Source: Pirellulales bacterium (GTDB lineage Bacteria > Planctomycetota > Planctomycetia > Pirellulales > UBA7805). From it: a stretch of DNA of 64,000 nucleotides. The first letter of the stretch is position 1; each line of letters begins with the position of its first letter. Under the pieces are notes generated by a model. That model saw nothing but the letters and a program-made list of their open reading frames with translations. It was not told the origin of the DNA and made no database searches. The position numbers and the translations under genes are program-made. Shown piece after piece: positions 17,557 to 64,000 of this stretch. Where the stretch lies: assembly GCA_029245145.1 (NCBI GenBank), contig JAQWPY010000005.1:11990-75989 (forward strand), in the 5' to 3' direction.

Positions 17557-20424
17557 CTAACTTTCCTGGGAGTGGGGTGAGACTTCTTCGCGGAGCGAAG
17601 CCTCTTTGGCCAAAACTTCAGCGAGGCAGCCACCGGTGGGCTGCCTCGTGTGATGCGCTACCTCTTCTGGAATCCCGCTCGCGACGACGTGCCCGCCGGC
17701 ATCCCCCGCACCCGGCCCCAAGTCGATCACGTAATCTGCCTCTTTGATCAATTGCAGATTGTGGTCGACCACTAAGAGCGAGTGTCCGACATCGAGTAGT
17801 GCGGTAAAACAGTCCTGCAATTGAGTCACGTCCGCAAAATGCAATCCTGCAGTCGGCTCATCGAGAATGTAGAGCGTACGTTTGTGGGCACGACTCGACA
17901 TCGCCGCTGCCATTTTAAGCCGTTGTGCTTCGCCTCCTGAGAGCGTGTTGACACCTTGCCCCAGAGGGAGATACCCCAATCCAACATCCAGCAAGCGTTT
18001 GAGTCGCGCTTGCACTTTGGTCTCGCCACGGAAAAAAACAAATGCCTCCCGAACCGTGAGCCTCAGAACATCCGAAATACTCTTTCCGCGATACAGAATC
18101 TCCAGAACATCCGAAGTATAGCGGGCCCCTCCGCATTCGGGACAATCCATATACACATCCGCGAGAAATTGCATATCGATTTCGATCTGCCCCTCGCCCT
18201 TGCAGCGGGGGCAGCGACCACCATCAACGTTAAAGCTGAAGTGGCTGGCAGTAATATTGCGGGTACGCGCGTCGGTCGACTGTGCAAAAACTCGTCGGAT
18301 TTCATTAAAGGCCTTGATATAGGTCACCGGATTGGATCGTGGGGAACGTCCGAGCGATTGCTGATCGAGCAAAACACAGTCATCAAGTTGATCAGCACCG
18401 TAGATATCCTCATAAGGAAGGCTGGCCACTGCCTGCTTTTTCAACCTGGCACAGAGGGCCGGATACAATGTTTCCTGCACGAGACTACTCTTGCCCGAGC
18501 CACTCACCCCTGTAACGACACAAAGTACGCCGAGCGGGAACTCGACATCTAAATTTTTGAGATTATTTCCTCGCGCTCCCTTGAGTCGAATCCAACCCTG
18601 GTCAGTCGTTCGCCGTTCACAATTTGAACGAAGACCACGACGGAGCATCAAATAGTCTCCCGTAACACTTTCCGCATCCGATTCTATCTCTGCGGGCGTA
18701 CCTTGGAACATAAGCTCGCCACCTTGTTCTCCCGCTCCCGGACCCAACTCCACAATGCGATCTGCAGCACGAATCACGGAAGGCTCATGATCAACTACTA
18801 AGACTGTATTGCTTCGATCGCGAAGATTCACGATGGCCTGTACCAAAGGGCCGACATCGTGGGGATGCAAGCCGATCGAAGGCTCGTCTAGTACATAGAG
18901 CATATTGACCAAATTAGAACCGAGAGCGGTGGTGAGAGCCACGCGCTGTGCCTCGCCAGCCGAGAGAGTGCGCAAGGGACGATCGAGACTGAGATATCCG
19001 AGTCCAACCGATTCGAGGTATCGCAGTCTTGAATCAATCTCAAGGAGCACGCGCTTCGCCACTTGATTCTTCTCTTCTTCCTGAATGACAGTCGCAATCC
19101 ATTCCCTGCATTGCGTTATCTGAAGCTCGCAGATTTGCGCAATGTTACGATTTGCAACGTAAGTTGCCAGCGAGCCTTTCTTTAGCCGAGCACCGTCACA
19201 TTCAAGACACGGTCGGTAGCTTTTCCATCGGCTCAGAAACACGCGAACCGGCATCTTGTACTTCCGCCGTTCGAGCCATGAGAAAAATCCATTGAGCCCA
19301 CCAAATTCACGCTCCGCGACCCCCCGGACAATTCGATCGATATGCTGCGGGCTCAATTCGCGATAGGGAATGTCCACCGGTATTTCATAATCATCTGCCA
19401 GTTCCAACAATTCCTCCAACTCGTGCCGGTAGGCGGGACTGTTCCACGGGGCCACGGCGCCCTCGCGGAGCGTCTTCTCTTTGTCAGGAACCACAAGGTC
19501 CATATCGACCTCTGCGATCGTGCCGAACCCTTCACATGCTTCACAGGCACCGAGGGGACTATTGAAGTTGAAATAACCAGGGTCGATCTGCGGATAACAA
19601 ATGCGGCAATCGGGACATGTCATTTCTTCACTAAATCCGATCCGGCGCATGGGCCGTTCATTGATCATGACAAACTGTTCCGATCCTTCGTGTTCACCCC
19701 CTTCCATCCAAATAAAAGACTCGCCGCTGCCGTGCGTAAAAGCTGTCTCCAGAGAGTCTCTCAGTCTTTCGACTTGGAGCTTCCCTGAGACGAACCGATC
19801 CACGACGATCTCAACAGAGGACGTTTCAGCGTGTTCACCCTCTGACAGGCGGCGCTGAATTTCTTCGAGGGGCAAAATTTCCCCGTCGAAGATACCGCGA
19901 CGAAAACCCTCCTGATGCAACGGCTTGCTCCAGTCTTCCGGAGAAACCTCTTCATCACACGGCGCCGCAAATGTCACTAGCACCCGAGCTTCTTTCGCCT
20001 GCTGCTTGACCCAATCAGCCGCACTCTCGGTCGTATCGGACGTGACCACGCGACCACAGCCATAACATCGAGTGACTCCCACTTTGGAAAAAAGCAGGTG
20101 GAGGTGGGGTGCCACCTCTGTGGCGGTCCCTACCGTTACGCGATTGGACCGACTCGCCTGCCGGGGAGTCACCGCGATCGACGCAGGAATCCCGGTAATT
20201 TTTTCAGCCGCAGGCTGGGGTAATTGTTCTAGAAATTGTCTCGTATAGGGCGAAAAACTTTCAATGTATCTTCGTTGAGACTCCGCGTAGAGCGTATCGA
20301 TCGCCAAGCTCGTTTTACCACTCCCCGAAACGCCGCAAAAAACGATCAGTTCGCGCAGCGGCAAATCGAGATCAATTTTTTTCAGATTGTGAACCTCAAC
20401 GCCCCGCAGCGTGATTGCCTGCAT
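17557..20424 (-). CDS. UvrA-family ABC ATPase (diverged paralogue)
   Basis: 955 aa. Two Walker A motifs ([20 protein letters not shown]), signatures LSAGEAQR and LSGGEAQR, Walker B motifs LYVLDEPS and LYILDEPT, and the zinc-module Cys pairs. N-terminal motif DTLYAESQRRYIESFSPYTRQFL. Confidence 0.9.
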   Translation of the reverse strand: MQAITLRGVEVHNLKKIDLDLPLRELIVFCGVSGSGKTSLAIDTLYAESQRRYIESFSPYTRQFLEQLPQPAAEKITGIPASIAVTPRQASRSNRVTVGTATEVAPHLHLLFSKVGVTRCYGCGRVVTSDTTESAADWVKQQAKEARVLVTFAAPCDEEVSPEDWSKPLHQEGFRRGIFDGEILPLEEIQRRLSEGEHAETSSVEIVVDRFVSGKLQVERLRDSLETAFTHGSGESFIWMEGGEHEGSEQFVMINERPMRRIGFSEEMTCPDCRICYPQIDPGYFNFNSPLGACEACEGFGTIAEVDMDLVVPDKEKTLREGAVAPWNSPAYRHELEELLELADDYEIPVDIPYRELSPQHIDRIVRGVAEREFGGLNGFFSWLERRKYKMPVRVFLSRWKSYRPCLECDGARLKKGSLATYVANRNIAQICELQITQCREWIATVIQEEEKNQVAKRVLLEIDSRLRYLESVGLGYLSLDRPLRTLSAGEAQRVALTTALGSNLVNMLYVLDEPSIGLHPHDVGPLVQAIVNLRDRSNTVLVVDHEPSVIRAADRIVELGPGAGEQGGELMFQGTPAEIESDAESVTGDYLMLRRGLRSNCERRTTDQGWIRLKGARGNNLKNLDVEFPLGVLCVVTGVSGSGKSSLVQETLYPALCARLKKQAVASLPYEDIYGADQLDDCVLLDQQSLGRSPRSNPVTYIKAFNEIRRVFAQSTDARTRNITASHFSFNVDGGRCPRCKGEGQIEIDMQFLADVYMDCPECGGARYTSDVLEILYRGKSISDVLRLTVREAFVFFRGETKVQARLKRLLDVGLGYLPLGQGVNTLSGGEAQRLKMAAAMSSRAHKRTLYILDEPTAGLHFADVTQLQDCFTALLDVGHSLLVVDHNLQLIKEADYVIDLGPGAGDAGGHVVASGIPEEVAHHTRQPTGGCLAEVLAKEASLREEVSPHSQES

Positions 20425-20900: not shown

Positions 20901-21289
20901 AAGTGAATCGATCCGAGCAGATTGAATCGCAGGAAGTCTCGATGGAAGGCGCTACCGGGTGCAGTGTCCGTTGGCTCATCAACCAAACAGACGGCGCACC
21001 CAATTTCGCGATGCGACAATTTGTCGTCAATCCTGCGGGGCACACTCCGAAACACCGTCATCCGTACGAACACGAAGTATACGTACTGGCGGGCAACGGG
21101 GTCGTTCTGGAGGGCGATGAGGAACATCCGATTGCTGCCGGTGATTTTGTATACGTCGGTCCCGATGAAATTCATCAATTTCGAAATACGGGCTCTGCAC
21201 CACTCACATTTCTTTGCCTAGTGCCACACATCCCGGATGGTACTCCGGTCAATACGGTTCCCGAATGCGAACAGACGGCCGACAACTGA
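20897..21289 (+). CDS. cupin domain-containing protein
   Basis: GHTPKHRHPYEHEVYVLAG...GDFVYVGPDEIHQFRN matches the two cupin motifs. The ATG at 20897 overlaps the upstream stop (ATGA). Confidence 0.75.
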   Translation: MKVNRSEQIESQEVSMEGATGCSVRWLINQTDGAPNFAMRQFVVNPAGHTPKHRHPYEHEVYVLAGNGVVLEGDEEHPIAAGDFVYVGPDEIHQFRNTGSAPLTFLCLVPHIPDGTPVNTVPECEQTADN

Positions 21290-21335
21290 TTGCAAATTTT
21301 TTCCGCTGTTTTACAACCTGAAATCCTCTTCGCCT

Positions 21336-23339
21336 ATGGCTCCATCGATCCCACAAGAAGTCGAAGCACTACGCGATGAGATCCGTCATCACGATCGAAA
21401 ATATTTCGTAGAAGCAAATCCGGATATTTCGGATCTCGAATACGATCGGCTAATGGAGCGGTTGAGGAAACTCGAGGCGGCACACCCGGATTTACATTCT
21501 CCCGATAGTCCCACGCAGCGGGTCGGGGAGCGCCCGGTCGAAAATCTCACATCGGTTGAACATGGCGTGCCAATGCTTTCGATCGATAACACCTACAGTG
21601 CTGAGGAGGTCCGCAAATATGCCGACCGCATTGCCAAACTTGTTCCAGGCGAAACCATTCAGTGGGTTGTGGAACTGAAGGTGGATGGAGTGGCCGCCAC
21701 CGTCATTTATCAAAATGGCGGCCTCACGCAGGCGCTCACTCGGGGAAACGGCGTAGTGGGCGATGACATCACTCACAACATTAGAACCGTAAAAGATATC
21801 CCATTGCGACTGACGACCGATCGCGCGCCCGTACAACTGGAGGTACGTGGCGAAATTTATATGACCAACTCCGATCTTGTTGAGCTCAACCGGCGTCAAG
21901 AAAAGCAGGGGGAACCAACCTTTGCCAATACGCGAAATGTGACTGCGGGAAGCATCCGCTTGCTTGACCCTCGCAAATGTGCGCAAAGACCATTACACAT
22001 GTTTTGCCATGGCGTGGGAGAAACGGAAGAATTAAAAGCAGAAACCCACATGGATTTTTTGAAGGAGCTTCGAGAATACGGGTTGCCCACCACTCCCTAC
22101 GTTGAGTGTTTTGATTCGATCGACACCGTACTGGCGCACTGCGAAAGCTTGGTCGAAAGACTCCATACGTTGGACTTCGAAGTGGATGGCTTGGTGATCA
22201 AGGTCAATCACTTTGACCAGCGCAAGCGACTGGGAAGCACGGCAAAGAGTCCCCGCTGGATGATCGCCTATAAAATTGAGAAATATGAGGCGGTGACTCA
22301 ACTCAACGAAATCCGTGTACAGATCGGGAAAACGGGAACTGTGACTCCGGTCGCAGAATTAAAACCGGTTGAATTAGCCGGAACCACCGTCAGTCGTGCC
22401 AGTCTGCACAATGCCGAGGAAATTGAACGCAAGGACATTCGACCCGGTGACACCGTCGTGGTCGAAAAAGCGGGAAAGATCATCCCTCATATTGTGAGGG
22501 TGGAGCTACACAAGAGAAAAGGATCTCCGGCAAAATTTAAGTTCCCGACTTCCTGCCCGGAGTGCGATACACCACTAAAAAAAGACGACGGGGGAGTCTA
22601 CATCCGCTGCCCCAACTTCGACTGCCCTGCACAATTGAAGGAACGAATGCGCTACTTTGCCAGTCGCAATGCGATGCAGATTGAAGGATTAGGCGAGGCG
22701 TTGATCGATCAATTGATCGATCAAGGGCTCGTTACAACCTACGGAGATCTCTATCGACTCCAAAAGAATCAGCTCACAACACTCGAGCGCGTAGGGAGCA
22801 AGTCGGCTGACAATTTGCTATCGCAAATTGATGCCAGTCGAAAACGGGGGCTCGCTCGATTGCTCAACGCCCTTTCCATTCGCCACGTGGGGCGGAATGT
22901 TGCCATCCTGCTGGCAAATAGATTTGGCGCACTCGAAGCAATTCAAAACTGCTCCGTGGAAGAATTGGCAGAGGTCAACGAAATTGGTGAAATCATCGCT
23001 CGCAGCGTCTATGACTTCCTGCACTCGCCTCAGGGAGAAAAAATGGTTGCCGATCTTTCTGCGGTCGGCGTCGAACTCAACGCAACCGAAACGGCGGCGA
23101 CCGACGGGTCACAACTTGAGGGTAAAACATGCGTGGTGACCGGAATTTTAACGGAATACACGCGGGATGAAATTCACGCGTTGATCACACAACACGGGGG
23201 TCGTGCGGCCTCGAGTGTTTCTGCGAAAACGGATTTCCTGATTGCAGGAGAAAAGGCGGGGAGCAAATTAGAGAAGGCAAAAAAACTAGGGGTCCCTGTT
23301 CTCTCCGAATCTGATTTTTCCGGTCTGCTCGCCGAGTAG
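21336..23339 (+). CDS. ligA: NAD-dependent DNA ligase
   Basis: Adenylation motif VELKVDG, a four-Cys zinc finger (CPECDTPL...CPNFDCPAQ), an HhH region and a C-terminal BRCT (GKTCVVTG...). The ATG at 21336 is the likely start. Confidence 0.95.
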   Translation: MAPSIPQEVEALRDEIRHHDRKYFVEANPDISDLEYDRLMERLRKLEAAHPDLHSPDSPTQRVGERPVENLTSVEHGVPMLSIDNTYSAEEVRKYADRIAKLVPGETIQWVVELKVDGVAATVIYQNGGLTQALTRGNGVVGDDITHNIRTVKDIPLRLTTDRAPVQLEVRGEIYMTNSDLVELNRRQEKQGEPTFANTRNVTAGSIRLLDPRKCAQRPLHMFCHGVGETEELKAETHMDFLKELREYGLPTTPYVECFDSIDTVLAHCESLVERLHTLDFEVDGLVIKVNHFDQRKRLGSTAKSPRWMIAYKIEKYEAVTQLNEIRVQIGKTGTVTPVAELKPVELAGTTVSRASLHNAEEIERKDIRPGDTVVVEKAGKIIPHIVRVELHKRKGSPAKFKFPTSCPECDTPLKKDDGGVYIRCPNFDCPAQLKERMRYFASRNAMQIEGLGEALIDQLIDQGLVTTYGDLYRLQKNQLTTLERVGSKSADNLLSQIDASRKRGLARLLNALSIRHVGRNVAILLANRFGALEAIQNCSVEELAEVNEIGEIIARSVYDFLHSPQGEKMVADLSAVGVELNATETAATDGSQLEGKTCVVTGILTEYTRDEIHALITQHGGRAASSVSAKTDFLIAGEKAGSKLEKAKKLGVPVLSESDFSGLLAE

Positions 23340-53392: not shown

Positions 53393-54817
53393 CTACGCCA
53401 GAATGTCGTGAATAACCCGACCATGGACATCCGTCAAACGGAAATCGCGACCCGCATGACGATAAATCAGTTTCTCGTGGTCCAAACCCAATTGGTGCAG
53501 CACCGTCGCGTGGAGATCGTGCACATCAATCGGATTCTCGACCGCCTTGTACCCAAAATCGTCCGTTGCCCCGTAGGAAATCCCCGCGCGGATTCCGCCT
53601 CCCGCCAAAAGTGCCGAGAAACCGTAAGAGTTGTGGTCGCGTCCCTTGCCGGAGGTGCCATCGTCGTTCATCTGTACGGTGGGCGTGCGACCGAATTCTC
53701 CCGAAACAATGACAAGTGTCTCATCCAAAAGACCACGCTGCTTGAGATCGAGAATTAAGGCCGCAATCGGTCGGTCACACTCCGGAGCGAGGCGGCGAAT
53801 TTTTGGAAAAATATCATTATGGTGATCCCACGGTTGAAATGGACCGTGCCACACCTGAATAAACCTCACGCCACGTTCGGCCAAACGCCGAGCGATGATC
53901 ATTTGTCTCGCTTGATCCGAATCGCCGTACATGCGGTGGATGTGTGCCGGTTCATCCTTCACATCGAAGGCACCGCGGGCGGCAACTTGCATGCGATAGG
54001 CCAATTCATATGAAGCAATCCGTCCTTCGAGCGCATCGTCCTGACCTCGCTGGATCGCATGCTGGCGATTGAGTTGTTGCACCAAATCCAACTGGCGTCT
54101 CTGCTGCTGCGGTCCCGCCAGTTGGCTGCGAACATTTTCAACGAGGCGATCGACACGACGATAAGCCGTGTCGACTAACATTCCCTGATGCACCGATGGC
54201 AAAAATGCGCTCCGCCAGTTGTCGGCACCTTTCACCGGCACGCGTCCTTTCCCCGGACAGAGAACAACAAACGCGGGCAGATTTTCATTCTCTGAGCCAA
54301 GACCATAGCTGAGCCAAGATCCCACACTCGGGGTGAGTTGTGAAAGTGAACCGCAGTTCATCAGCATCAGAGCGGACTCATGAATCGGTGAGGAGGTTGT
54401 CATGGAACGAACCAAACACAACTCATCAACGATCGATCCGATGTGAGGAAACAATTCGCTCACCTCAGTACCACATGCGCCATGGGATCGAAATCGAAAA
54501 GGGGACGCCATGGCATGTCCCGTCATGAAGGGAGTGAAGGGATGCCGATACGGAAGCGGCTTGCCGTGGTTTTTGGTAAGGATGGGCTTGGGATCAAACG
54601 AATCAACTTGAGAGAGTCCCCCATTGAGAAAAACGTGGATGACTCGCTTTGCACGGGGGCGCACCTGCGGTAATGCATCGGCAGGTGCTGCCAAGAGTTG
54701 CTCTTGATGCAGCAAACCTGCAAGGCCGAGCGCACCGAACCCCATGCCACATCGCTTGAGCAGCGTGCGTCTTGAAAGTGGGTGTAGAGCGAGGCTCTCT
54801 CGACTTGGGAGGTTCAT
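53393..54817 (-). CDS. DUF1501 domain-containing protein (sulfatase/alkaline-phosphatase-like, Tat-type signal)
   Basis: SRRTLLKRCGMGFGALGLAGLL N-terminus, HVFLNGGLSQVDSFDPKP, and C-terminal HAGRDFRLTDVHGRVI. The start overlaps the upstream stop by 4 nt. Confidence 0.85.
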   Translation of the reverse strand: MNLPSRESLALHPLSRRTLLKRCGMGFGALGLAGLLHQEQLLAAPADALPQVRPRAKRVIHVFLNGGLSQVDSFDPKPILTKNHGKPLPYRHPFTPFMTGHAMASPFRFRSHGACGTEVSELFPHIGSIVDELCLVRSMTTSSPIHESALMLMNCGSLSQLTPSVGSWLSYGLGSENENLPAFVVLCPGKGRVPVKGADNWRSAFLPSVHQGMLVDTAYRRVDRLVENVRSQLAGPQQQRRQLDLVQQLNRQHAIQRGQDDALEGRIASYELAYRMQVAARGAFDVKDEPAHIHRMYGDSDQARQMIIARRLAERGVRFIQVWHGPFQPWDHHNDIFPKIRRLAPECDRPIAALILDLKQRGLLDETLVIVSGEFGRTPTVQMNDDGTSGKGRDHNSYGFSALLAGGGIRAGISYGATDDFGYKAVENPIDVHDLHATVLHQLGLDHEKLIYRHAGRDFRLTDVHGRVIHDILA

Positions 54818-56229
54818 GTCAAAACCTCCCTGATGACGCGACCGTGCACATCGGTCAGACGAAAATCTCGGCCTGCATGCCGATGGGTGAATCGCTCGTG
54901 GTCGATACCCAGTTGGTGCAAAATGGTTGCATGCAAGTCGTGCACGTGAACCCGATTTTCAATTGCGCGATAGCCAAAGGGATCGGTCTTTCCATAGATC
55001 GATCCCTGACGGAAGCCTCCTCCGGCAAGACAGCAGGTAAACGCATAAGGATTGTGGTCCCTGCCGAGCAACGATTTCCCTTGCGAACTCAACTCCGTCG
55101 TCGGCGTCCTGCCGAATTCACCGCAGAAGAAGACGATCGTCTCGTCGAGCAAACCTCGCTGGTCGAGGTCGGCAATCAAGGCACCGATTCCGCGATCACA
55201 TTCTTTTGCGCGAAATCGATGTTCTTTTTCGAGTTTGCTATGATTGTCCCAAGGCTGATTTTGTCCGTGCCAACACTGTACGAACCGCACACCTCGTTCG
55301 ACGAGTCGCCGGGCAATCAGCAACTGCCTCCCCTGGGCAGAATCGCCGTACATTTTCTGGATGTATTCGGGCTCACGGTGGATATCAAAAGCATCACTGG
55401 CCGCAGCCTGCATCCGATAGGCGAGTTCGTAAGATTCAATCCGTGCGTCGAGTGCATCGTCTTCTCCAGTCCGCTGACGATGGGCCATATTCAGTTTTTG
55501 CAACAAGTCGAGTTGAAGCCGTTGCTGGGTGAGGCCAATTTTTTGGTTGCGTACATCCGCGACAAGTCGCTCGACTTCGGTATTAATGGTATCGACGAGT
55601 GTCCCTTGGTAGACCGAGGGCAGAAACGCACTCCGCCAATTATTTGGCCCGGCAATCGGCAGCCCCCCAGGACAAAGAACTACAAAGCCGGGCAAACTTC
55701 GATTTTCCGTACCCAGGCCATAGGTAACCCAGGACCCCATCGCCGGAGTCGTCTGCGTTAAAGTCCCACTGTTCATCATCATCAGCGAGGGAGTATGCGT
55801 CACCGAGTCGGTATGCATCGAGCGAATCAAGCACATCTTGTCAACGACTTGACCGATGTGAGGGAAAAGTTCGCTTACCTCAATCCCGCTTTCACCGTAA
55901 GGCTTGAACTTGAAGGGCGAAGCAAAAGCACCGCCAGTCATATTTTCCGTCTCGGGACTTCTCCCGGGAAGTGGCTTTCCGTGGTATTGCTTCAGAAGCG
56001 GCTTGGGATCGAAAGAGTCCATCTGCGACAGACCGCCGTTGAAGAAAATGTGAATCACATGCTTGGCCTGCGGAGCGTGATGAGGCAAGTCACGCTTTTC
56101 CGGGTCCGCAGATACCTCTCCCTCCAACAGGCTCCCCAACCCGAGAGCACCGAACCCCAAACCGGCACGCTGCAACCATTGACGGCGATCGAGTGGAGAA
56201 GGATTCATCGAGTCATCCAGTGGTGCCAC
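54814..56229 (-). CDS. DUF1501 domain-containing protein (tandem paralogue)
   Basis: DRRQWLQRAGLGFGALGLGSLL, HIFFNGGLSQMDSFDPKP, and HAGRDFRLTDVHGRVI. It is collinear with its neighbour along the full length. Confidence 0.85.
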   Translation of the reverse strand: MAPLDDSMNPSPLDRRQWLQRAGLGFGALGLGSLLEGEVSADPEKRDLPHHAPQAKHVIHIFFNGGLSQMDSFDPKPLLKQYHGKPLPGRSPETENMTGGAFASPFKFKPYGESGIEVSELFPHIGQVVDKMCLIRSMHTDSVTHTPSLMMMNSGTLTQTTPAMGSWVTYGLGTENRSLPGFVVLCPGGLPIAGPNNWRSAFLPSVYQGTLVDTINTEVERLVADVRNQKIGLTQQRLQLDLLQKLNMAHRQRTGEDDALDARIESYELAYRMQAAASDAFDIHREPEYIQKMYGDSAQGRQLLIARRLVERGVRFVQCWHGQNQPWDNHSKLEKEHRFRAKECDRGIGALIADLDQRGLLDETIVFFCGEFGRTPTTELSSQGKSLLGRDHNPYAFTCCLAGGGFRQGSIYGKTDPFGYRAIENRVHVHDLHATILHQLGIDHERFTHRHAGRDFRLTDVHGRVIREVLT

Positions 56230-59200
56230 TTAGTCCACAAACATAAATTCGTTCGAAATGAGCAACGCGTGCGCGTACTGCTCCCACGGAGTTTGCAACC
56301 CCGTCCAACGGGGCACCGAGGCAGAGAAAGCCGCCTCGCTCGGCCATGAGTTGAGTCCGTTGAGTTCACCATTTTCCATGACCGACACCTTCCAAACTTC
56401 AATCGGCCAGGTGTAGTCATCGAACCGACTGTGTTCGTTTGCCGAAATGACGAAATCAATTTGCTCACCCTTTTCGACCTCAATTTTTTCAATGCGTATT
56501 CTCTCTTCTTTTTCCTTGGCTCGATAACGCCCCAGTTCACCTTGTCGCGAAGAGACAATGCGAATCGAGATACCATCTCCCCGAACCGCTTCCGGCATTA
56601 AATTGACACGGCCCTTAAAAAGATAGAGCCCTTCTTCAGGTGCCGTAAATCGGCGAACGACCGCATGGTCGTCGCTGGGGCAGCCACCCTTTGCACTCAG
56701 GTACGGCGGGCCCGTAATCTTTTCTTCTTCCCGCCATTTTTTTCCGTCGAAATACTCAAAAGGCCTGAAAACCAATTCTCCCGAATCCGAATCAATCTTC
56801 CCGGTCCCATACTCCCACGCCATCTGCTTCCCATCCACCGCCAGGCTCTGCGGCGCATCGGCCAAAGGTACGCTGAGGAAAGCTTCGGCGAGCGATTGTT
56901 CATATTCGCTCGGCTGACGACCGTAAACCCAATCGTAAAGCTGTTCGACACGACCGGCGAAGCTCTGCGGTGCGATTGATTCAGCGAAAACTCGGTCGAG
57001 TCGTGCAATGAGTTGCCGGGCGCGATCAGCCAGAAATCGGTTGTTCATCAGGTAGAGAGCTTGTTGAGGCACGGTCGTCTTGTTTCGCATCGGCAAGGTA
57101 GCGTCAGGAACACTCACATCGAAAGTCGCTAGAACCCCCGGCATTTGCTGACGATTGACCAGAAGGTAAATACTCCTTCGTCCGCTGCCGAAGTCTTCCG
57201 TAGGCAACCCGCCCACATCCGTATTCAGTTCACCCGATACCGCCAGCAGTGCGTCGCGCATTGCCTCGAACTCGAGGCGACGACGATTCATCCGCCAATA
57301 AAAATGATTGTTCGGATCGACCGCGCGTTTCCCTGCATCGTCTGCACTCGCCTGTTGGTAGGTTGCCGAATGCGTGATCAGACGGTGCAGCGCCTTGAGC
57401 GACCAATTATGTTCTATGAGGTAAGCGGCCAAATAATCGAGTAATTCTCGCTGAACCGGTTCGGAGGACCTGACACCAAAATCGCTGGGAGTTGCAACCA
57501 AACCTTCACCAAAATGCCAGTGCCAAATGCGGTTGGCAATCACGCGGGCCGTGAGAGGATTGTGAGGGCTCGCAATCGCTTCTGCCAACTGCAACCGACC
57601 ACTGCCTTCCATGTAGGGCTCACCGGAATCGACCGCTTCGAAGGGTGCGCCGGAGAGCAGTTGGAGAAATCTCCGAGACGTGGTCGACCCCTTTCTCCGC
57701 CAATCCCCACGAATGTGGATTGCGGCATCCCTGGGAAGATCCCTGTCGACAAGCGTCATCGCGCGGGCCGGCACGGTATCAATGAATTGCACCAGCGTAT
57801 TCTGTGCCTCTTGCTGGAGAGACCTGAGATTATTTTTCTCGCTGATGTGATAGAGATTATATGCCTGTTCATCATTATCGACGACCGCGGGAGACCCGTC
57901 GCCGTAAAGTACTAATCGCAACTGCTCGTCCACTTGATTTTCAAATCCCTCGTCGCCCGGGTCGACCTCCAACACTTTTTGCCACTCGGCATGCACCGCT
58001 TCGAGTACTTCCCCGTATACCTGTGCTGCGTCGATCATGGTCGACGGGGCCGCCTGCTCCAGCGCCGTACGCAGACGCGGATTCGTTTGATCCGCAGACG
58101 CGATCAACTCACCGGCCTCTGCAGAAAAAGCGACCGGGTCGAGTCGGGCAAGTCGATGCCAAAGACCGAATATCGGGTCGTTTTCGCGAGCAGAAATATA
58201 CCGCGTCCAGAGAACCACACCTCCATCGGCAACAAGATTGTGTCGCCGCAACAAGGTGCGCTCTGTTTTGTAGTTGAGGTCTGTTTTTGTGCGGTGTGCA
58301 GGCATCGTTTCGTGGACCACGAACTCAAGATAATCACCAACGTACGATCGCATTTCCTGGCGAATTTTCTGCCTTAAACCGACACGCTGTTCATGGTATT
58401 TGGTGATCCGCTTATCAAAAACGTTTTTGAAATTTGCATACTGCGTATCTTCTATGGGGGGTTCTTCGGTCAGCAGGGGTTTCTGATCGTAAGAAGGCTC
58501 TATCGAACTATCGAAAATTCCATACAGCGCGTAATAGTCGTCCATACCAATCGGATCAAATTTGTGATCGTGGCAGCGGGCGCACATGAGTGTCAGCCCT
58601 TGAAATCCACGCATGGTGACGTCAATCTGATCCCCTACGATCCGATGGCGCTTATGGATAAAGCGATTACCCAGGGTCAAAAAACCCATTGCTGCCAGCT
58701 TCCACTGCTCTTCCTCTTCGAGGTCGAGAAGATCAGCGGCAAGTTGATGGCGAATGAAATCGTCAAAAGGCACATCTTCATTTAGCGCACGTACGACGTA
58801 GTCGCGATACGTCCAACCATACGCATATCGCTCTTCCCGTTTTCCGACGCCGATGTATCCTTTTGTATCTGCGTAGCGGGCCACATCTAACCAGTGCCGC
58901 GCCCATCTCTGGCCGTATTCGGGTCGATCAAGCAGGTGATCGACAAAGCTGCCCCAGTCGATTTCGCCGTCGCTGTCAAAAAAACGATCTCGTTCCTCAG
59001 CAGTAGGCGGCAACCCGAGCATGTCAAAGCTGGCGCGACGCAGCAACTGTCGGGAGGAAGCACGCGGTGATGGGCTCAACCCGTTGGCTTCCTGTTGGGC
59101 AAGAATAAAACAATCTATCCCGTTGTTGGGCCATGCCGTGTTTTGCACCTTAGGGATTTCAGGCTGCCTGATCGGTTGCAGCGCCCAATGTGAATTTTGG

Positions 59201-59781
59201 ATTTCATCAATCCTCTCAATGGGAGACGCTCCCCCCTGTTCCTCCGGATCGACCGGCCAAGGAGCACCCATTTCAATCCATTGCCTTACCAAGGCAAGTG
59301 CCTCGGGGGGTAGAGGGTCGTCGGGCGGCATTTGCAAATCCTCGTTCTTGTAGCTTATCGCTTCAAAAAGGAGACCCTCTTCATCCGTTTCATTTGAAAG
59401 AACGGGGCCCGAGTCGCTGCCTGCAAAAAAGGCTTCTCGGCGATCCAAACGCAAACCACTTTCCTGCTTTTCAGCGCCGTGACATTCCGTGCAATAGGTA
59501 TGAAATATGGGGCGGATATGCTGCTCGAAAAAATCGGTCTCTTCCGAGGTCGCAGCCCACATTGCGGACGGACCGGTTGCGGCAAACAGCAGCACAGAGG
59601 CACTGGCCCGAATCGAGAGCGGACGAGCCAGTGAGGGTACCACGGTGAGAAATTTAGCAACCGAAAAAAGAATCAACATCATCCACCGGCCGAGAATTCC
59701 GGCAGTTGCGGGGGATGCAGTGCAAGTTGTACCCCTGAACTGAATCCCTGTTGGAGGGGGGGTTAGACGGTTCGGCCGCAA
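56230..59781 (-). CDS. PSCyt (planctomycete cytochrome c) / DUF1549 / DUF1553 (PSD1) multidomain protein
   Basis: FFEQHIRPIFHTYCTECHGAEKQESGLRLD (PSCyt-type CxxCH), a central CARCHDHKFDPI motif, and a C-terminal LLISNEFMFVD. The true start may be MMLILFS near 59682. Its stop directly abuts the DUF1501 start. Confidence 0.85.
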   Translation of the reverse strand: MRPNRLTPPPTGIQFRGTTCTASPATAGILGRWMMLILFSVAKFLTVVPSLARPLSIRASASVLLFAATGPSAMWAATSEETDFFEQHIRPIFHTYCTECHGAEKQESGLRLDRREAFFAGSDSGPVLSNETDEEGLLFEAISYKNEDLQMPPDDPLPPEALALVRQWIEMGAPWPVDPEEQGGASPIERIDEIQNSHWALQPIRQPEIPKVQNTAWPNNGIDCFILAQQEANGLSPSPRASSRQLLRRASFDMLGLPPTAEERDRFFDSDGEIDWGSFVDHLLDRPEYGQRWARHWLDVARYADTKGYIGVGKREERYAYGWTYRDYVVRALNEDVPFDDFIRHQLAADLLDLEEEEQWKLAAMGFLTLGNRFIHKRHRIVGDQIDVTMRGFQGLTLMCARCHDHKFDPIGMDDYYALYGIFDSSIEPSYDQKPLLTEEPPIEDTQYANFKNVFDKRITKYHEQRVGLRQKIRQEMRSYVGDYLEFVVHETMPAHRTKTDLNYKTERTLLRRHNLVADGGVVLWTRYISARENDPIFGLWHRLARLDPVAFSAEAGELIASADQTNPRLRTALEQAAPSTMIDAAQVYGEVLEAVHAEWQKVLEVDPGDEGFENQVDEQLRLVLYGDGSPAVVDNDEQAYNLYHISEKNNLRSLQQEAQNTLVQFIDTVPARAMTLVDRDLPRDAAIHIRGDWRRKGSTTSRRFLQLLSGAPFEAVDSGEPYMEGSGRLQLAEAIASPHNPLTARVIANRIWHWHFGEGLVATPSDFGVRSSEPVQRELLDYLAAYLIEHNWSLKALHRLITHSATYQQASADDAGKRAVDPNNHFYWRMNRRRLEFEAMRDALLAVSGELNTDVGGLPTEDFGSGRRSIYLLVNRQQMPGVLATFDVSVPDATLPMRNKTTVPQQALYLMNNRFLADRARQLIARLDRVFAESIAPQSFAGRVEQLYDWVYGRQPSEYEQSLAEAFLSVPLADAPQSLAVDGKQMAWEYGTGKIDSDSGELVFRPFEYFDGKKWREEEKITGPPYLSAKGGCPSDDHAVVRRFTAPEEGLYLFKGRVNLMPEAVRGDGISIRIVSSRQGELGRYRAKEKEERIRIEKIEVEKGEQIDFVISANEHSRFDDYTWPIEVWKVSVMENGELNGLNSWPSEAAFSASVPRWTGLQTPWEQYAHALLISNEFMFVD

Positions 59782-60012
59782 CCGCTTGTGTCGTTACTCA
59801 ATATAATCGGTTTGGCTCCTCCGGTCAACGAAAGGCTTAAGGTAAAAAGAGCGAGCAAAATGCATATTGCGACTCGTTCGATTTCTTTCCGTCATTTGGG
59901 AATTGATCCATTGCCGAGGACGATTACAATTCGGTCTTCGCACCTGCCTGACACCGAAATGTGATGGTCGTCCTTATCGTCTCTCCGCGACCCTCGCTAG
60001 GCTCCAGAATTT

Positions 60013-63000
60013 ATGCCCGCCTCCGATCTACAAATAAAAGGTGCCCGCGAACATAACCTTCGCTCCGTCAATGTCACACTTCCGCGCAACCATTTAATCT
60101 GCCTGACTGGTGTGAGTGGGAGCGGCAAAAGTTCCCTCGCGTTCGATACCGTATTTGCGGAGGGGCAGCGAAGGTACGTCGAAAGTCTCTCGAGCTTTGC
60201 ACGACAATTTCTGGGGCAAATGCCAAAACCGGACGTTGACTCCATCGAGGGACTGAGTCCCACAATCTCAATCTCACAAAAAACGTCGGGCCGCAACCCT
60301 CGGTCAACTGTCGGAACCATTACCGAAATTTACGATTTTCTGCGCGTACTCTATGCGAGGGTAGGGCAGGGGCACTGCCCGCAGTGCGGCCTGCCAGTGA
60401 CCGCGCAAACGCGTGAGCAGATCATCGCGCAGATCATCGGCCTGAGCGACGGGACACCGATCGCCGTCCTGGCACCATTGATTCGAGGCCAGAAGGGAGA
60501 ATTCCGCGATCTGTTCACCGATCTTCTCAAACAGGGATTTTCGCGAGCACGTATCGATGGCCGGATCGCAAGCCTCAGCGAAGATCAGAGTCTCGATCGG
60601 CAAATGCGCCACAATATTGAAGTGGTGGTCGATCGCTTGAAAATCAATCGTCGCAATCGCACACGACTCGCCGAGGCGGTCGAACTTGCGCTTTCCGTCG
60701 GCAAAGGAAACTTGATTGTCGCAATCGACCCGACGACCGATGGCAAAGCCGCGGAAAGTTCGAAGCCAAAGCAGCAACTGACGGGAGGTGAGTTGCAACT
60801 TTCATCTGAGTTCGCATGCACTCACTGCCAGGTCAGCTTCGCACCTCTCTCGCCACAGCTGTTTAGTTTTAACAGTCCCCAAGGCATGTGCGAGACATGC
60901 GATGGTTTGGGTGAATTTTTTAGCTTCGATCCAATCCTGCTCGTTCCACGGCCCGATCGCTCTGTCCAACAGGGTGCCATCGAACTGCTCGGCAAACTCA
61001 AAGCGATGGGGCGATGGAACCGGCACATTTACAAAGGTGTTGCCGAAACTGTCGAGCGTCTGCACGATCTACCACCCGGCACGATGCTCGAAACGGCCTG
61101 GGAAGAACTCGGTGAGGAACTTCAAAATCTCTGGCTCTGGGGAACGGGCGTTGAACATATCACCTACACCTGGCGCGGTGGCCAGCGCGGAATGAAGCAC
61201 GGGGGCACTTTTGAGGGGATCATCCCGGAATTACTTTCAAAATACCGCAACAGCCGGAGTACTCCCCAAATCCGCAAATTGGAAAAATACATGAACACCA
61301 TTCGTTGTCCCGACTGTGAAGGACAGCGATTAAATCCGCAATCGCGGGCGGTGCGAATTGCATCGGGAGATCCCTACTTTGCGGAACAGCCCTCGCGAAC
61401 GCTTCCCGAATTGTGCGACTTGCCGGTCGCCGATGCGGGGCGATTTTTCAGCAAGCTGCTCTTGACCGAAACACAACAGACCATTGCGGAAGAGCTGACC
61501 AAAGAAATCCGTGGGCGGTTAGGGTTTTTAGAAAACGTAGGGCTCGAATATCTGAGCCTCAATCGTACCGCACCGACCCTTTCGGGTGGTGAATCACAGC
61601 GCATTCGTCTCGCTGGTCAAATTGGATGTGGACTTGTTGGTGTCCTTTACATCCTCGATGAGCCCTCGATCGGCTTGCACACGAGAGACAACCAACGATT
61701 GCTCGATACGCTGCAAAGTCTACGCGACTTGGGGAACACGGTTGTCGTTGTCGAGCACGATGAAGATACAATGCGCGCCGCAGATCGGGTGATCGACTTC
61801 GGCCCCGGTCCCGGAGTGCGGGGAGGAGAAGTCGTTGCCGAAGGCGACTGGAAGGAGATCGCGAAAGAAAAGCGAAGCGTTACGGGACAATATCTTGCGG
61901 GCACCGAGGAAATAGAAATCCCTTCCAAGCGGCGGCTGAGCGAAGAAAAAAAACTCCGCATCCTCGGGGCAACACATAACAACCTGAAAAACATTGACGT
62001 CGAAATTCCGTTGGGGATGTTGGTTTGTGTGACCGGCGTTTCCGGCTCGGGGAAAAGTTCACTGGTAAGTGACATCCTGGTCGAATCACTTCGCCGGGAT
62101 TTAAATTTGGGCAAAGGCGAACCGGGGGCACACGCTGCGATCGAGGGCCTTGCCCACCTTGATAAGCTGATCGCTATCGATCAATCACCTATCGGCCGGA
62201 CACCTCGATCCAATCCGGCAACCTACATTAAAGTTTTCGACGAGATCCGAAAACTCTACTCGCAACTTCCCGATGCGAAACGCTGTGGTTACTCTGCAGG
62301 CCGCTTCAGCTTTAATGTTCGGGGAGGTCGTTGCGAGGCATGCGAAGGGTGTGGCGCGAATAAATTGGAGATGGATTTTCTCGCGGCCATCTGGGTACCG
62401 TGCCCGATCTGTGGTGCACGACGATTCAATCGGGAAACTTTAGAGATTCGCTACAAGGGAAAATCTATTGCCGATGTATTGGAGATGGATATCCAGCAAG
62501 CGCTCGAACACTTTGAAAACATCCCCAAAATCCACGACAAGCTACAAACGCTGCACGACGTGGGGCTCGATTACATCAAACTGGGACAGCCCTCGCCCAC
62601 GCTTTCCGGGGGTGAGGCACAGCGGATCAAGCTTGCCCGCGAGTTGGTGAAACGGAGCACTGGAAAGACACTCTACCTGCTCGATGAGCCGACGACGGGG
62701 CTGCACTTTGCCGACATCAAAATGCTGCTTTCGGTACTCAATAATTTTGTCGAGGCAGGCAACACTGTTTTGGTGGTCGAGCACAATTTAGATGTCATCA
62801 AGACGGCCGACTGGGTCATTGACCTGGGACCCGAGGGGGGCGCAGCAGGCGGGCACATCGTCGCCACCGGAACGCCCGAACAAATCGCTAGTCATGCCAA
62901 ATCCTACACCGGTCGTTCACTGAAGCACTTTTTCTCGCAGGGAGACGCTTCGACATCAGCCAAACCTCCACCAAAAAAACAGCGGGAGCCCACTCGCGAA

Positions 63001-64000
63001 ATCGTGGTACGGGGTGCCAGGCAGCACAACCTCAAGGATGTCGACGTAAAAATCCCTCGCGACGCAATGACGGTCTGTTGTGGAGTGAGCGGCAGTGGCA
63101 AGACGTCACTAGCCATGGATACGATTTATGCGGAAGGTCAGCGAAGATACGTCGAGAGCCTCAGCAGCTACGCTCGACAGTTCGTCGCGCAAATGCAAAA
63201 ACCGCTGGTCGAACAGATTGAGGGACTCTCTCCCTCGGTCGCGATCGAACAGCGGCACATGGGGCACACGCCGCGATCGACCGTGGGAACCGTAACTGAA
63301 ATCTACGACTATCTACGGATTCTTATTGCTCGTATCGGCACGCCACACTGCCCCGAGTGCGACTCTGAGATCGGTACACAAACCGTAGATGAAATTATCG
63401 AACGAATATTTGCGCATCCGAGCGGAACCCAACTCTACCTGCTTGCTCCCCTGACTGTTTCATCCGGAGATAAGTACGAGTCGCTCTGGGATCAGGTACG
63501 TGGGCGAGGCTACGTAAGAGTGCGAATTGATGGAAAAACATATTCGGTCGATAGCACACCTGAAATTGATCGCCGCCGGAAGCACGACGTGGAAGTGGTG
63601 GTCGATCGCGTGAAAATCGATAAAAAGTCGCGCGGTCGCATCGCCGAGAGTGTCGAGGCGGCCCTCGGACTGGGCGAGGGCACGATGCGCGTGGCAATCG
63701 TCGACTCGCAGCGGGAAGAGACGGCGTGGAAAGTCGAAGTTCATAGCCAACACTTCGCCTGCGATCAATGCGGACTCAGCTTTGAACCGCTCGGACCGCA
63801 CCATTTTTCCTTCAATAGTCCTCTCGGCTGGTGCGAATCGTGCGAGGGACTGGGAACTGAAACCGGAACCAATCTTTCGGCGCTCTTGCGCGACAGTAAA
63901 CTCTCGCTCCGGGAGGGCGCGGTTGCCATTTGGCCCTCTGTCGACCAGCAGATTTCTCAGTGGATGCTGGACGCAATGTCCGAACAGTTGCGGGTACCGG
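60013..64000 (+). CDS. uvrA: tandem-duplicated UvrA (two UvrA units in one reading frame; 3' partial)
   Basis: ATG at 60013 ([16 protein letters not shown]...[35 protein letters not shown]). My spot translations of several segments found no stop, and the track lists no ORF in this frame, consistent with it staying open to base 64000. Hand translation of 62881..63180 shows the end of unit 1, a linker, then a second UvrA N-terminus ([11 protein letters not shown]...[34 protein letters not shown]). Confidence 0.9.

What the first reader, a model, noticed from the sequence alone, without database searches (positions are those of the whole stretch)
60013..64000. Two complete UvrA units fused in one ORF that is missing from the supplied ORF track
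The plus-strand frame starting at ATG 60013 is open to the end of the window, so the ATG-to-stop track never lists it. Unit 1 (about 60013..62940) has all UvrA landmarks: both Walker A loops, LSGGESQR and LSGGEAQR signatures, and zinc-module Cys pairs. After ...[24 protein letters not shown] comes a short Pro/Lys-rich linker ([20 protein letters not shown], about 62941..63000). A second UvrA N-terminus then restarts in the same frame ([20 protein letters not shown]...[35 protein letters not shown]...CPECDSEIG...). UvrA functions as a dimer, so a covalent head-to-tail pseudo-dimer would fix the stoichiometry and allow the halves to specialise. I recall very long UvrA proteins of about twice normal size in Chlamydiae, which belong to the same PVC superphylum, but I cannot verify that here.
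Basis: partly seen in the sequence, partly recalled or inferred. Interest (0 to 1): 0.65.

Follow-up and report, generated by a model that had tools for sequence, protein, structure and literature searches.

The report
Planctomycete double UvrA repair protein
The window ends with the first 57% of a ~2,320-residue DNA-repair protein made of two complete UvrA damage sensors joined in one chain; this gene fusion is real but already published for Planctomycetes, and the only apparently undescribed part is an extra ~345-residue tail beyond the window's end.

Summary
From ATG 60013 the + frame runs 1,329 codons to the window edge without a stop. It encodes a complete UvrA (aa 1-976), an 18-aa Pro/Lys-rich linker, and the start of a second UvrA. 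A 99%-identical independent metagenome contig supplies the rest. Unit 2 is complete and is followed by a ~345-aa C-terminal domain, giving about 2,324 aa in total.

The architecture is conserved. It appears in 97 of the top 120 homologs (2,200-2,330 aa) and in at least 586 species genomes of Planctomycetota. All four Walker A, signature and Walker B motifs and all 24 zinc cysteines are invariant in 98/98 sequences. Each unit alone passes NCBI's UvrA equivalog cutoff and keeps the UvrB-binding and insertion domains. The units are only 47% identical, so this is not an assembly artefact.

The fusion is not new. Mahajan et al. [quoted passage not shown] It is not a member of the 1,809-position double-length UvrA family NF001885.

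What seems undescribed is the tail. It has no Pfam, NCBIfam or PDB match. It is an internal duplication of an α/β module with only weak secretion-chaperone/YbjN-like topology. Overall this is a known kind of protein and of low interest.

The parts
60013..62940 (+). UvrA unit 1 (aa 1-976): a complete class I UvrA
   Evidence: NF001503 1,355 bits against a cutoff of 1,147, aligned to positions 4-941 of 943. It scores 1,045-1,108 bits against solved UvrAs 9gxk, 3zqj and 2r6f.
60109..60132 (+). Unit 1 NBD-I Walker A, GVSGSGKS (aa 33-40)
   Evidence: Motif scan. Invariant in 98/98 homologs.
60406..60726 (+). Unit 1 UvrB-interaction domain (aa 132-238)
   Evidence: Pfam PF17760, 123.7 bits, model positions 1-107 of 109.
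60928..61284 (+). Unit 1 insertion / DNA-binding domain (aa 306-424)
   Evidence: Pfam PF17755, 62.3 bits.
61579..61602 (+). Unit 1 signature I, LSGGESQR (aa 523-530)
62035..62058 (+). Unit 1 NBD-II Walker A, GVSGSGKS (aa 675-682)
62602..62625 (+). Unit 1 signature [10 protein letters not shown] (aa 864-871)
62941..62994 (+). Inter-unit linker (aa 977-994, [18 protein letters not shown]); variable, basic and predicted to be flexible
   Evidence: Family-wide, the spacer between the conserved YTG of unit 1 and the GAR of unit 2 is 32-57 aa (median 37). It is rich in A/R/K, has a median net charge of +8 and low conservation. There is no stop and no conserved Met in 98 sequences.
62995..63999 (+). 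UvrA unit 2, N-terminal third (aa 995-1329), cut by the window end. The rest of unit 2 (to about aa 1979) and the C-terminal domain (about aa 1980-2324) lie beyond base 64000.
   Evidence: NF001503 415 bits, aligned to positions 6-332 of 943. The continuation comes from P0049/L001, which has 5 mismatches in the 903-aa overlap. Complete unit 2 scores 1,283 bits on NF001503.
63082..63105 (+). Unit 2 NBD-I Walker A, GVSGSGKT (aa 1024-1031)
63379..63702 (+). Unit 2 UvrB-interaction domain (aa 1123-1230)
   Evidence: Pfam PF17760, 122.4 bits. Two stretches were already reported for the window ORF.
17557..20424 (-). Separate, more divergent single-length UvrA paralogue (955 aa). It is context for the finding and not part of the fused gene.
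   Evidence: NF001503 983 bits, below the cutoff of 1,147. TIGR00630 978 bits, above its cutoff of 729.8. The UvrB-interaction domain scores only 37.7 bits. It is 37% identical to either unit. Single-length orthologs are widespread in the same lineages.

Best explanation
The window's 3' end carries the first 1,329 codons of the planctomycete-type fused uvrA gene. It encodes one ~2,324-aa polypeptide with this layout: complete class I UvrA, basic flexible linker, second complete class I UvrA, then a ~345-aa C-terminal domain made of two duplicated α/β modules.

Shown here. Both units retain every element a UvrA protomer needs. Each has two ABC ATPase sites with Walker A, Walker B and signature motifs, three zinc modules, a UvrB-binding domain and an insertion domain. 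All of these are under strong purifying selection across the family.

Inferred. The two units fold against each other into an intramolecular equivalent of the canonical UvrA2 dimer. One chain would then supply the four ATPase sites and two UvrB-docking sites that normally come from two chains. It would scan DNA, verify damage and load UvrB as in ordinary UvrABC nucleotide excision repair. Covalent linkage would make formation of the active species independent of concentration and would allow mild asymmetry between the halves. Consistent with that, unit 2 evolves slightly faster, mainly in its UvrB-binding and insertion domains, and has a longer basic spacer between its NBDs.

Speculative. The basic linkers add non-specific DNA affinity, and the C-terminal pseudo-dimeric module is a partner-binding or regulatory appendage.
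For: - Open frame and motifs.
- Each unit independently passes the UvrA equivalog cutoff (1,355 and 1,283 bits against 1,147).
- Both units have UvrB-interaction domains (124 and 122 bits) and insertion domains (62 and 57 bits).
- Each unit resembles solved class I UvrAs (1,033-1,108 bits) more than class II UvrA2 (2vf7, about 620 bits) or Ecm16 (7sh1, about 436 bits).
- Independent contig continuous through the junction.
- 97 of the top 120 homologs are 2,200-2,330 aa with 100% query coverage and are named UvrA from Pirellulales, Aeoliella, Lignipirellula and Mariniblastus.
- About 42 of 50 GTDB loci with enough flank have one stop-free ORF of 2,314-2,556 codons with four Walker A motifs, four signatures and the tail.
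- All four Walker A, signature and Walker B motifs and all 24 zinc cysteines are invariant in 98/98.
- Mean pairwise identity is 0.709 for unit 1, 0.678 for unit 2 and 0.508 for the tail.
- Published statement of the fusion, plus LC-MS/MS detection of UvrABCD in Tuwongella immobilis: PMC8567305.
Against: - No structural test of the intramolecular pseudo-dimer was possible. The 1,200-aa limit prevents modelling both units together, and no coordinates were available to measure whether a spacer as short as 32 aa spans the distance from the C-terminus of one UvrA protomer to the N-terminus of the other.
- The same genomes also carry a separate single-length UvrA-like gene, so the division of labour is unknown.
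- The window itself contains only a third of unit 2. Completeness for this exact genome is inferred from a 99%-identical contig, not read directly.
- The tail's function is unknown and its fold assignment is weak (E ≥ 0.012, TM ≤ 0.41).
- A natural split of the gene within unit 2 in some lineages shows that covalent continuity is not strictly required everywhere.
Confidence: 0.85

Rival explanations
1. The two units do not pair with each other. Instead, each pairs with its counterpart in a second chain (U1:U1' and U2:U2'), or the chains form higher-order assemblies. The active species would then contain four or more UvrA units.
For: Nothing here fixes the pairing geometry. Both units keep all canonical features, so either could in principle form homotypic dimers. 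The units are as diverged from each other (937 bits) as from the UvrAs of other phyla, so heterotypic interface compatibility is not guaranteed.
Against: The fusion is strictly conserved with a short spacer (median 37 aa) in hundreds of genomes. This is most simply explained if the linked units are the interacting partners. The C-terminal tail is itself a tandem pseudo-dimer, matching a 1:1 intramolecular arrangement.
Confidence: 0.12
2. One unit has been functionally re-purposed, as in class II UvrA proteins such as UvrA2, DrrC and Ecm16. It would act in drug or intercalator removal or as a regulator rather than in UvrB loading, so the protein would be a bifunctional fusion rather than a pseudo-dimer.
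For: Unit 2 evolves faster, especially in its UvrB-binding domain (0.537 against 0.629) and insertion domain (0.512 against 0.588). In 56% of homologs its first signature is LSNGE. It has an expanded basic inter-NBD spacer. An uncharacterised tail follows unit 2.
Against: The defining class II trait is loss of the UvrB-binding domain, and that domain is present here in both units (122-124 bits). Both units pass the class I equivalog cutoff. Both score far higher against class I structures than against 2vf7 or 7sh1. All catalytic and zinc residues are invariant in both units.
Confidence: 0.06
3. Artefact: two adjacent uvrA genes were joined by a sequencing or assembly error, or a duplicated uvrA was collapsed or mis-joined.
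For: The window ends inside the gene, so its 3' part is not directly seen. Some MAG loci show a broken ORF (L003, L007, L011, L030, L043, L047 and L070).
Against: An independent 99%-identical contig is continuous through the junction. There are 97 full-length homologs from NCBI, JGI, ENA and Logan, including complete genomes. About 42 GTDB loci carry an intact ORF of about 2,300-2,550 codons. No linker contains a stop in 98 sequences. The DNA of the two units shares at most 18 exact bases. The fusion has been described in the literature.
Confidence: 0.01

Closest known systems
Planctomycete fused UvrA, as described by Mahajan et al. 2021 (Front Microbiol 12:643045, PMC8567305, Fig. 13)
   Same: Two uvrA genes are fused in one ORF in Planctomycetes. 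The window protein's homologs are all Planctomycetota UvrAs with the same layout.
   Different: The paper's text calls the protein 'twice as long' as E. coli UvrA and assigns domains with Pfam only. The ~345-aa Pfam-less C-terminal domain, which makes the Pirellulales proteins about 2.4 times as long, is not mentioned in the text. Whether the Tuwongella protein carries it was not tested here.
Canonical class I UvrA (NF001503 / TIGR00630; solved structures 2r6f, 3pih, 3zqj, 3uwx, 9gxk)
   Same: Each unit has the full class I domain set and passes the equivalog cutoff on its own.
   Different: Canonical UvrA is a ~940-aa protein that forms a non-covalent homodimer. Here two diverged copies (47% identical) are linked covalently and carry an extra C-terminal domain.
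Double-length 'excinuclease ABC subunit A' family NF001885 (PRK00635, 1,809 model positions). Its chlamydial origin is from my memory, not from a tool.
   Same: A roughly double-length UvrA-type protein in a related superphylum.
   Different: The score is far below the family cutoff: 894 bits for the window ORF and 1,383 bits for full-length P0001, against 3,054. Both planctomycete units align to the first half of the model. The two halves therefore do not correspond one-to-one, and the model's second half is more divergent from canonical UvrA. The model has no room for the ~345-aa tail. Whether the two fusions share ancestry was not testable.
Class II UvrA paralogues (D. radiodurans UvrA2, 2vf7; Ecm16, 7sh1; DrrC)
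   Same: They are extra UvrA-family copies in a genome and have the same ABC and zinc-module core.
   Different: Class II proteins lack the UvrB-binding domain, whereas both units here have it. Scores against 2vf7 and 7sh1 are much lower than against class I structures.
Secretion-chaperone / YbjN-like α-β3-α-β2-α fold (SycE, SycH, SycN-YscB, ShcF, YbjN, DR_1245, PA14_16140). This comparison applies to the C-terminal tail only.
   Same: Each tail module has the same order of secondary-structure elements. Thirteen of the top 23 PDB Foldseek hits for module 1 belong to this class. Those proteins work as dimers, and the tail is a tandem pseudo-dimer.
   Different: No hit is significant (E ≥ 0.012, TM ≤ 0.41, rmsd 8-11 Å). 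There is no sequence similarity. Each module also has an extra N-terminal P-W-x3-G-x2-W-H segment.

Membership tests
Class I UvrA (NF001503 / TIGR00630) | Score above the curated equivalog cutoff over the full model length | tested here: met
   Unit 1 scores 1,355 bits and unit 2 scores 1,283 bits, against a cutoff of 1,147.
Class I UvrA (NF001503 / TIGR00630) | Two ABC ATPase modules per protomer with intact Walker A, Walker B and signature motifs | tested here: met
   Four of each are present in the reconstructed protein. They are invariant in 98/98 homologs.
Class I UvrA (NF001503 / TIGR00630) | Three zinc modules (four Cys each) per protomer | tested here: met
   There are 12 CxxC pairs. 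All 24 cysteines are invariant.
Class I UvrA (NF001503 / TIGR00630) | UvrB-binding domain and insertion (DNA-binding) domain inserted in signature domain I | tested here: met
   PF17760 scores 123.7 and 122.4 bits. PF17755 scores 62.3 and 57.4 bits, for units 1 and 2 respectively.
Class I UvrA (NF001503 / TIGR00630) | Damage-dependent DNA binding, ATPase activity and UvrB loading | not testable with these tools
   This is biochemistry. The only indirect support is proteomic detection of UvrABCD in T. immobilis (PMC8567305).
Planctomycete fused UvrA (Mahajan et al. 2021) | Two uvrA units in a single ORF, in Planctomycetes | tested here: met
   The frame is continuous. An independent contig agrees. 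Homologs come from Pirellulales, Planctomycetota and Phycisphaerae.
Planctomycete fused UvrA (Mahajan et al. 2021) | The two units form an intramolecular UvrA2-like pseudo-dimer | not testable with these tools
   The structure tool is limited to 1,200 aa and both units total about 1,980 aa. No coordinates were available for measuring distances.
Double-length UvrA NF001885 (PRK00635) | Score of at least 3,054 bits, with the two halves aligned to the two halves of the 1,809-position model | tested here: not met
   The window ORF scores 894 bits and full-length P0001 scores 1,383 bits. Units 1 and 2 each align to model positions of about 4-920.
Class II UvrA (UvrA2 / DrrC / Ecm16) | Absence of the UvrB-binding domain | tested here: not met
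   Both units have a strong PF17760 match. Similarity to 2vf7 and 7sh1 is much lower than to class I structures.
Secretion-chaperone / YbjN-like fold (C-terminal tail only) | Significant structural superposition on a member (for example TM > 0.5 or E < 1e-3) | tested here: inconclusive
HTH_32 (PF13565) homeodomain-like DNA-binding domain (C-terminal tail only) | Score above Pfam's gathering threshold of 33.7 bits | tested here: not met
   The best score is 27.6 bits. Eleven of 25 tails give sub-threshold hits at the start of either module. The AF2 model shows no three-helix HTH there.

The most novel reading that the evidence does not exclude
The ~345-aa C-terminal domain that follows the second UvrA unit is a previously undescribed functional module. 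It lies just outside this window and is conserved from Pirellulales to Phycisphaerae. It is always attached to UvrA, has no Pfam, NCBIfam or PDB relative, and is itself a tandem pseudo-dimer of a Trp-rich α/β module. It could act as a partner- or DNA-binding platform that tethers or regulates the covalent UvrA pseudo-dimer. That might relate to the unusual SDS-fraction behaviour of UvrABCD reported for Tuwongella. If so, planctomycete nucleotide excision repair would have a component with no counterpart in the E. coli paradigm.
Probability: 0.25. Interest if true: 0.5.

Novelty: already known. Interest (0 to 1): 0.25.

Why it matters
The fusion is a natural experiment on UvrA. It fixes the 2:2 UvrA:UvrB stoichiometry in one chain and lets the two 'protomers' diverge. 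That could help dissect the separate roles of the four ATPase sites and of the two UvrB-docking sites, which are hard to distinguish in a symmetric homodimer. This has been evident since the fusion was reported in 2021 and annotated in hundreds of genomes, so the window adds only another member.

The modest added value is the conserved C-terminal double module, which is attached only to UvrA and is unannotated. It is a concrete candidate for a lineage-specific accessory function in nucleotide excision repair.

Tried and rejected
- **Assembly artefact or collapsed repeat.** Rejected.
- **Internal translation start producing a separate unit 2.** No conserved Met in the linker; only 31 of 98 sequences have any Met there, and it is not positionally conserved.
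- **Membership of NF001885.** Tested and failed.
- **Class II UvrA identity for either unit.** Rejected because both have the UvrB-binding domain.
- **Family assignment for the tail.** Pfam, NCBIfam and PDB sequence searches were all empty. A Pfam scan of 25 members gave only sub-threshold HTH_32 hits.
- **Fold assignment for the tail.** Foldseek against PDB with the whole tail and with module 1, and against BFVD, gave only weak secretion-chaperone/YbjN and MotA-CTD-like hits.
- **Standalone or other-context occurrences of the tail.** The exhaustive representative search found 491 clusters. Every hit whose N-terminus is visible continues from a UvrA C-terminus, and the apparent 340-360-aa 'standalone' hits are fragments.
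- **Finding the source genome.** The best genome contigs match to the tail is only 55% identical, so the species is not among the GTDB representatives retrieved.
- **Obtaining a double-length UvrA sequence from outside Planctomycetota (chlamydial, if my memory of NF001885 is right) for a half-by-half phylogeny.** Not possible with the capped searches.
- **Literature.** Five searches found nothing on tandem UvrA before the sixth found PMC8567305.
Full report
**Observation.** Translating window 60013-64000 on the + strand gives 1,329 codons with no stop. From the local base composition the chance of this is about 1e-24. The ATG at 60013 is the true start, because homologs begin with the same residues, MPASD(L/I)[10 protein letters not shown].

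Residues 1-976 form a complete UvrA. They contain Walker A at aa 33 and 675, signatures LSGGESQR at aa 523 and LSGGEAQR at aa 864, Walker B at aa 545 and 887, and six CxxC pairs. This unit scores 1,355 bits on the NCBIfam UvrA equivalog NF001503 (cutoff 1,147), aligned end to end. An 18-residue Pro/Lys-rich linker follows at nt 62941-62994. A second UvrA N-terminus then starts in the same frame. It is 45% identical to unit 1 over 336 residues and matches model positions 6-332 of NF001503.

Two details need correcting. The paralogue at 17557..20424 is on the minus strand. The ORF is missing from an ATG-to-stop list only because it runs off the window.

**What lies beyond the window.** A database search with the 1,329-aa fragment returned more than 100 proteins covering 100% of the query at 63-72% identity. 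Their lengths cluster at 2,280-2,330 aa, not at the ~1,900 aa expected for two UvrAs. They are named 'excinuclease ABC subunit UvrA' from Pirellulales, Aeoliella, Lignipirellula cremea, Mariniblastus and other Planctomycetota.

One hit, P0049, is 99% identical to the window protein from residue 427 onward, with 5 mismatches in 903 residues, and it continues for another 995 residues. Its contig, L001, is an independent ENA metagenome assembly. It is 99.09% identical to window 55001-64000 at DNA level and is continuous through the unit 1/unit 2 junction.

Joining the two sequences gives a 2,324-aa protein:

| Part | Residues |
|---|---|
| Unit 1 | 1-976 |
| Linker | 977-994 |
| Unit 2 | 995 to about 1979 |
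| C-terminal domain | about 1980-2324 |

The reconstructed protein has four Walker A motifs, four signatures, four Walker B motifs and twelve CxxC pairs. Unit 2 alone scores 1,283 bits on NF001503, above the cutoff.

**Artefact controls.** The two units are 46.7% identical as protein. At DNA level the best match is 68% over 238 nt and the longest shared exact word is 18 nt. A collapsed or mis-joined repeat is therefore not credible.

Each unit is more similar to solved class I UvrAs from distant phyla (1,033-1,108 bits) than to the other unit (937 bits). The pairing is ancient.

The best 80 are all Planctomycetota. In about 42 of the ~50 loci with a full upstream flank, a single stop-free ORF of 2,314-2,556 codons carries four Walker A motifs, four signatures and the tail. 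The exceptions look like frameshifted MAG assemblies.

No linker contains a stop in 98 aligned sequences, and no Met is conserved there. This argues against a separately initiated unit 2.

**Constraint on the two units.** Across 98 sequences, all four Walker A, signature and Walker B motifs and all 24 zinc-ligand cysteines are invariant. Both units carry a strong UvrB-interaction domain (PF17760: 123.7 and 122.4 bits) and an insertion/DNA-binding domain (PF17755: 62.3 and 57.4 bits). Neither unit is a class II, UvrA2-like copy.

Unit 2 evolves slightly faster than unit 1, with mean pairwise identity 0.678 against 0.709. The difference is concentrated in the UvrB-binding domain (0.537 against 0.629) and the insertion domain (0.512 against 0.588). 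In 56% of homologs the first signature of unit 2 reads LSNGE. Its inter-NBD spacer is longer and more basic, with a median of 39 aa against 23 aa.

The inter-unit spacer, measured from the conserved YTG to the conserved GAR, is 32-57 aa with a median of 37. It is rich in Ala, Arg and Lys and has a median net charge of +8.

**Mechanism.**
- *Shown:* one chain holds everything that a canonical UvrA2 dimer holds, namely four ATPase sites, six zinc modules, two UvrB-docking domains and two insertion domains. All of it is under purifying selection.
- *Inferred:* the two units pack against each other as an intramolecular pseudo-dimer that performs damage search and UvrB loading as in standard UvrABC repair. 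Covalent linkage would make assembly independent of concentration and would permit mild asymmetry.
- *Not testable here:* both units together exceed the 1,200-aa limit of the structure tool, and no coordinates were available to check whether a 32-aa spacer can bridge the termini.

The main rival is inter-chain pairing or a higher-order assembly (about 0.12). Re-purposing of one unit is unlikely given the intact UvrB-binding domains (about 0.06). An artefact is effectively excluded (about 0.01).

**The C-terminal domain.** This domain lies outside the window but is part of the same gene. It has no match in Pfam, NCBIfam or PDB sequences.

It is an internal duplication of a ~150-170-aa module (hhalign probability 96.8%, E = 3e-10 over 139 columns). 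Each module opens with an invariant P-W-x3-G-x2-W-H motif and contains several invariant Trp residues.

AlphaFold2 models are confident, with pLDDT 90.7 for the whole tail and 90.1 (pTM 0.86) for module 1. They show an α-β3-α-β2-α arrangement in each module.

An exhaustive search of 1.84 billion representatives found 491 clusters containing the tail. Wherever the upstream sequence is visible, it continues from a UvrA C-terminus. The tail also occurs in Phycisphaerae, again after a double UvrA. It is therefore a UvrA-specific appendage that is old within the phylum. Its function is unknown. A partner-binding role is my guess, based only on the fold class.

**Comparison with what is known.** The fusion itself is published. 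Mahajan et al. [quoted passage not shown] They detected all UvrABCD subunits by LC-MS/MS in Tuwongella immobilis, in the SDS fraction. The proteins are also routinely annotated as UvrA by NCBI and JGI. The paper's text does not mention the C-terminal domain. Its figure used Pfam, which has no model for that domain.

NCBIfam holds a separate 1,809-position double-length UvrA family, NF001885. The planctomycete protein fails that family's cutoff by a wide margin: 894 bits for the window ORF and 1,383 bits for full-length P0001, against 3,054. Both of its units align to the first half of the model. It is therefore not a member of that family. Whether the two fusions share an origin could not be tested.

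**Verdict.** The feature is an already known kind of protein. The window adds one more member, truncated by the window edge. The only apparently undescribed element is the conserved C-terminal double module. Interest is low (0.25). The most novel reading not excluded is that this tail is a new accessory module of planctomycete nucleotide excision repair (probability about 0.25, interest if true about 0.5).

Noticed in passing
window 17557-20424 (-), with neighbours 16618-17556 (-), 15524-16561 (-) and 21237-23339 (+): A third, more divergent single-length UvrA-like gene of 955 aa. It scores 983 bits on NF001503 (below the cutoff), its UvrB-interaction domain scores only 37.7 bits, and its first signature is LSAGEAQR. 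Single-length orthologs are widespread in the same planctomycete lineages. It abuts a 312-aa ORF of unknown function with no intergenic gap, followed by a ThiF-family gene. Its divergent neighbour is NAD-dependent DNA ligase LigA. These genomes therefore carry three UvrA units in two genes, and the division of labour between them is unknown.
   Followed up: partly
L082:1-5807 (ENA ERZ14210016 NODE_2996); proteins P0143 and P0161: An apparent natural gene fission of the fused uvrA. The upstream ORF ends '...PINRRIIV*' exactly at unit 2's inter-NBD spacer. After a 125-bp AT-rich gap, a new Met-initiated ORF encodes a ~270-aa disordered Lys/Ser-rich head, unit 2's NBD-II and the tail. A second cluster (P0161) appears to have the same architecture. 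Contig coverage is only about 4x, so a sequencing error is not excluded.
   Followed up: partly
P0129 (WP_075091369.1, Planctomyces sp. SH-PL14, complete genome): In this complete genome the annotated 'UvrA' is only 1,096 aa. It starts inside unit 2 and continues through the tail. This suggests a frameshift, a pseudogene or an annotation problem at that locus.
   Followed up: no
window 54814-59781 (-): Immediately upstream of the fused uvrA, on the other strand, lies the typical planctomycete gene pair. One gene is 1,183 aa with PSCyt1, PSCyt2 (DUF1549) and PSD1 (DUF1553) domains. The other is 471 aa and is DUF1501. This is consistent with a Pirellulales-like origin for the window. In the low-coverage contig L001 the same genes are fragmented into several calls.
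   Followed up: no
beyond the window: reconstructed protein aa 1591-1642, and aa 968-1000 = window 62914-63012: Both flexible spacers are strongly basic across the family: the unit 1/unit 2 linker and unit 2's inter-NBD spacer have median net charges of +8 and +5. The folded parts are near neutral. Unit 2's spacer varies from 24 to 74 aa, against a nearly fixed 23 aa in unit 1. A possible role in non-specific DNA contact is untested.
   Followed up: no
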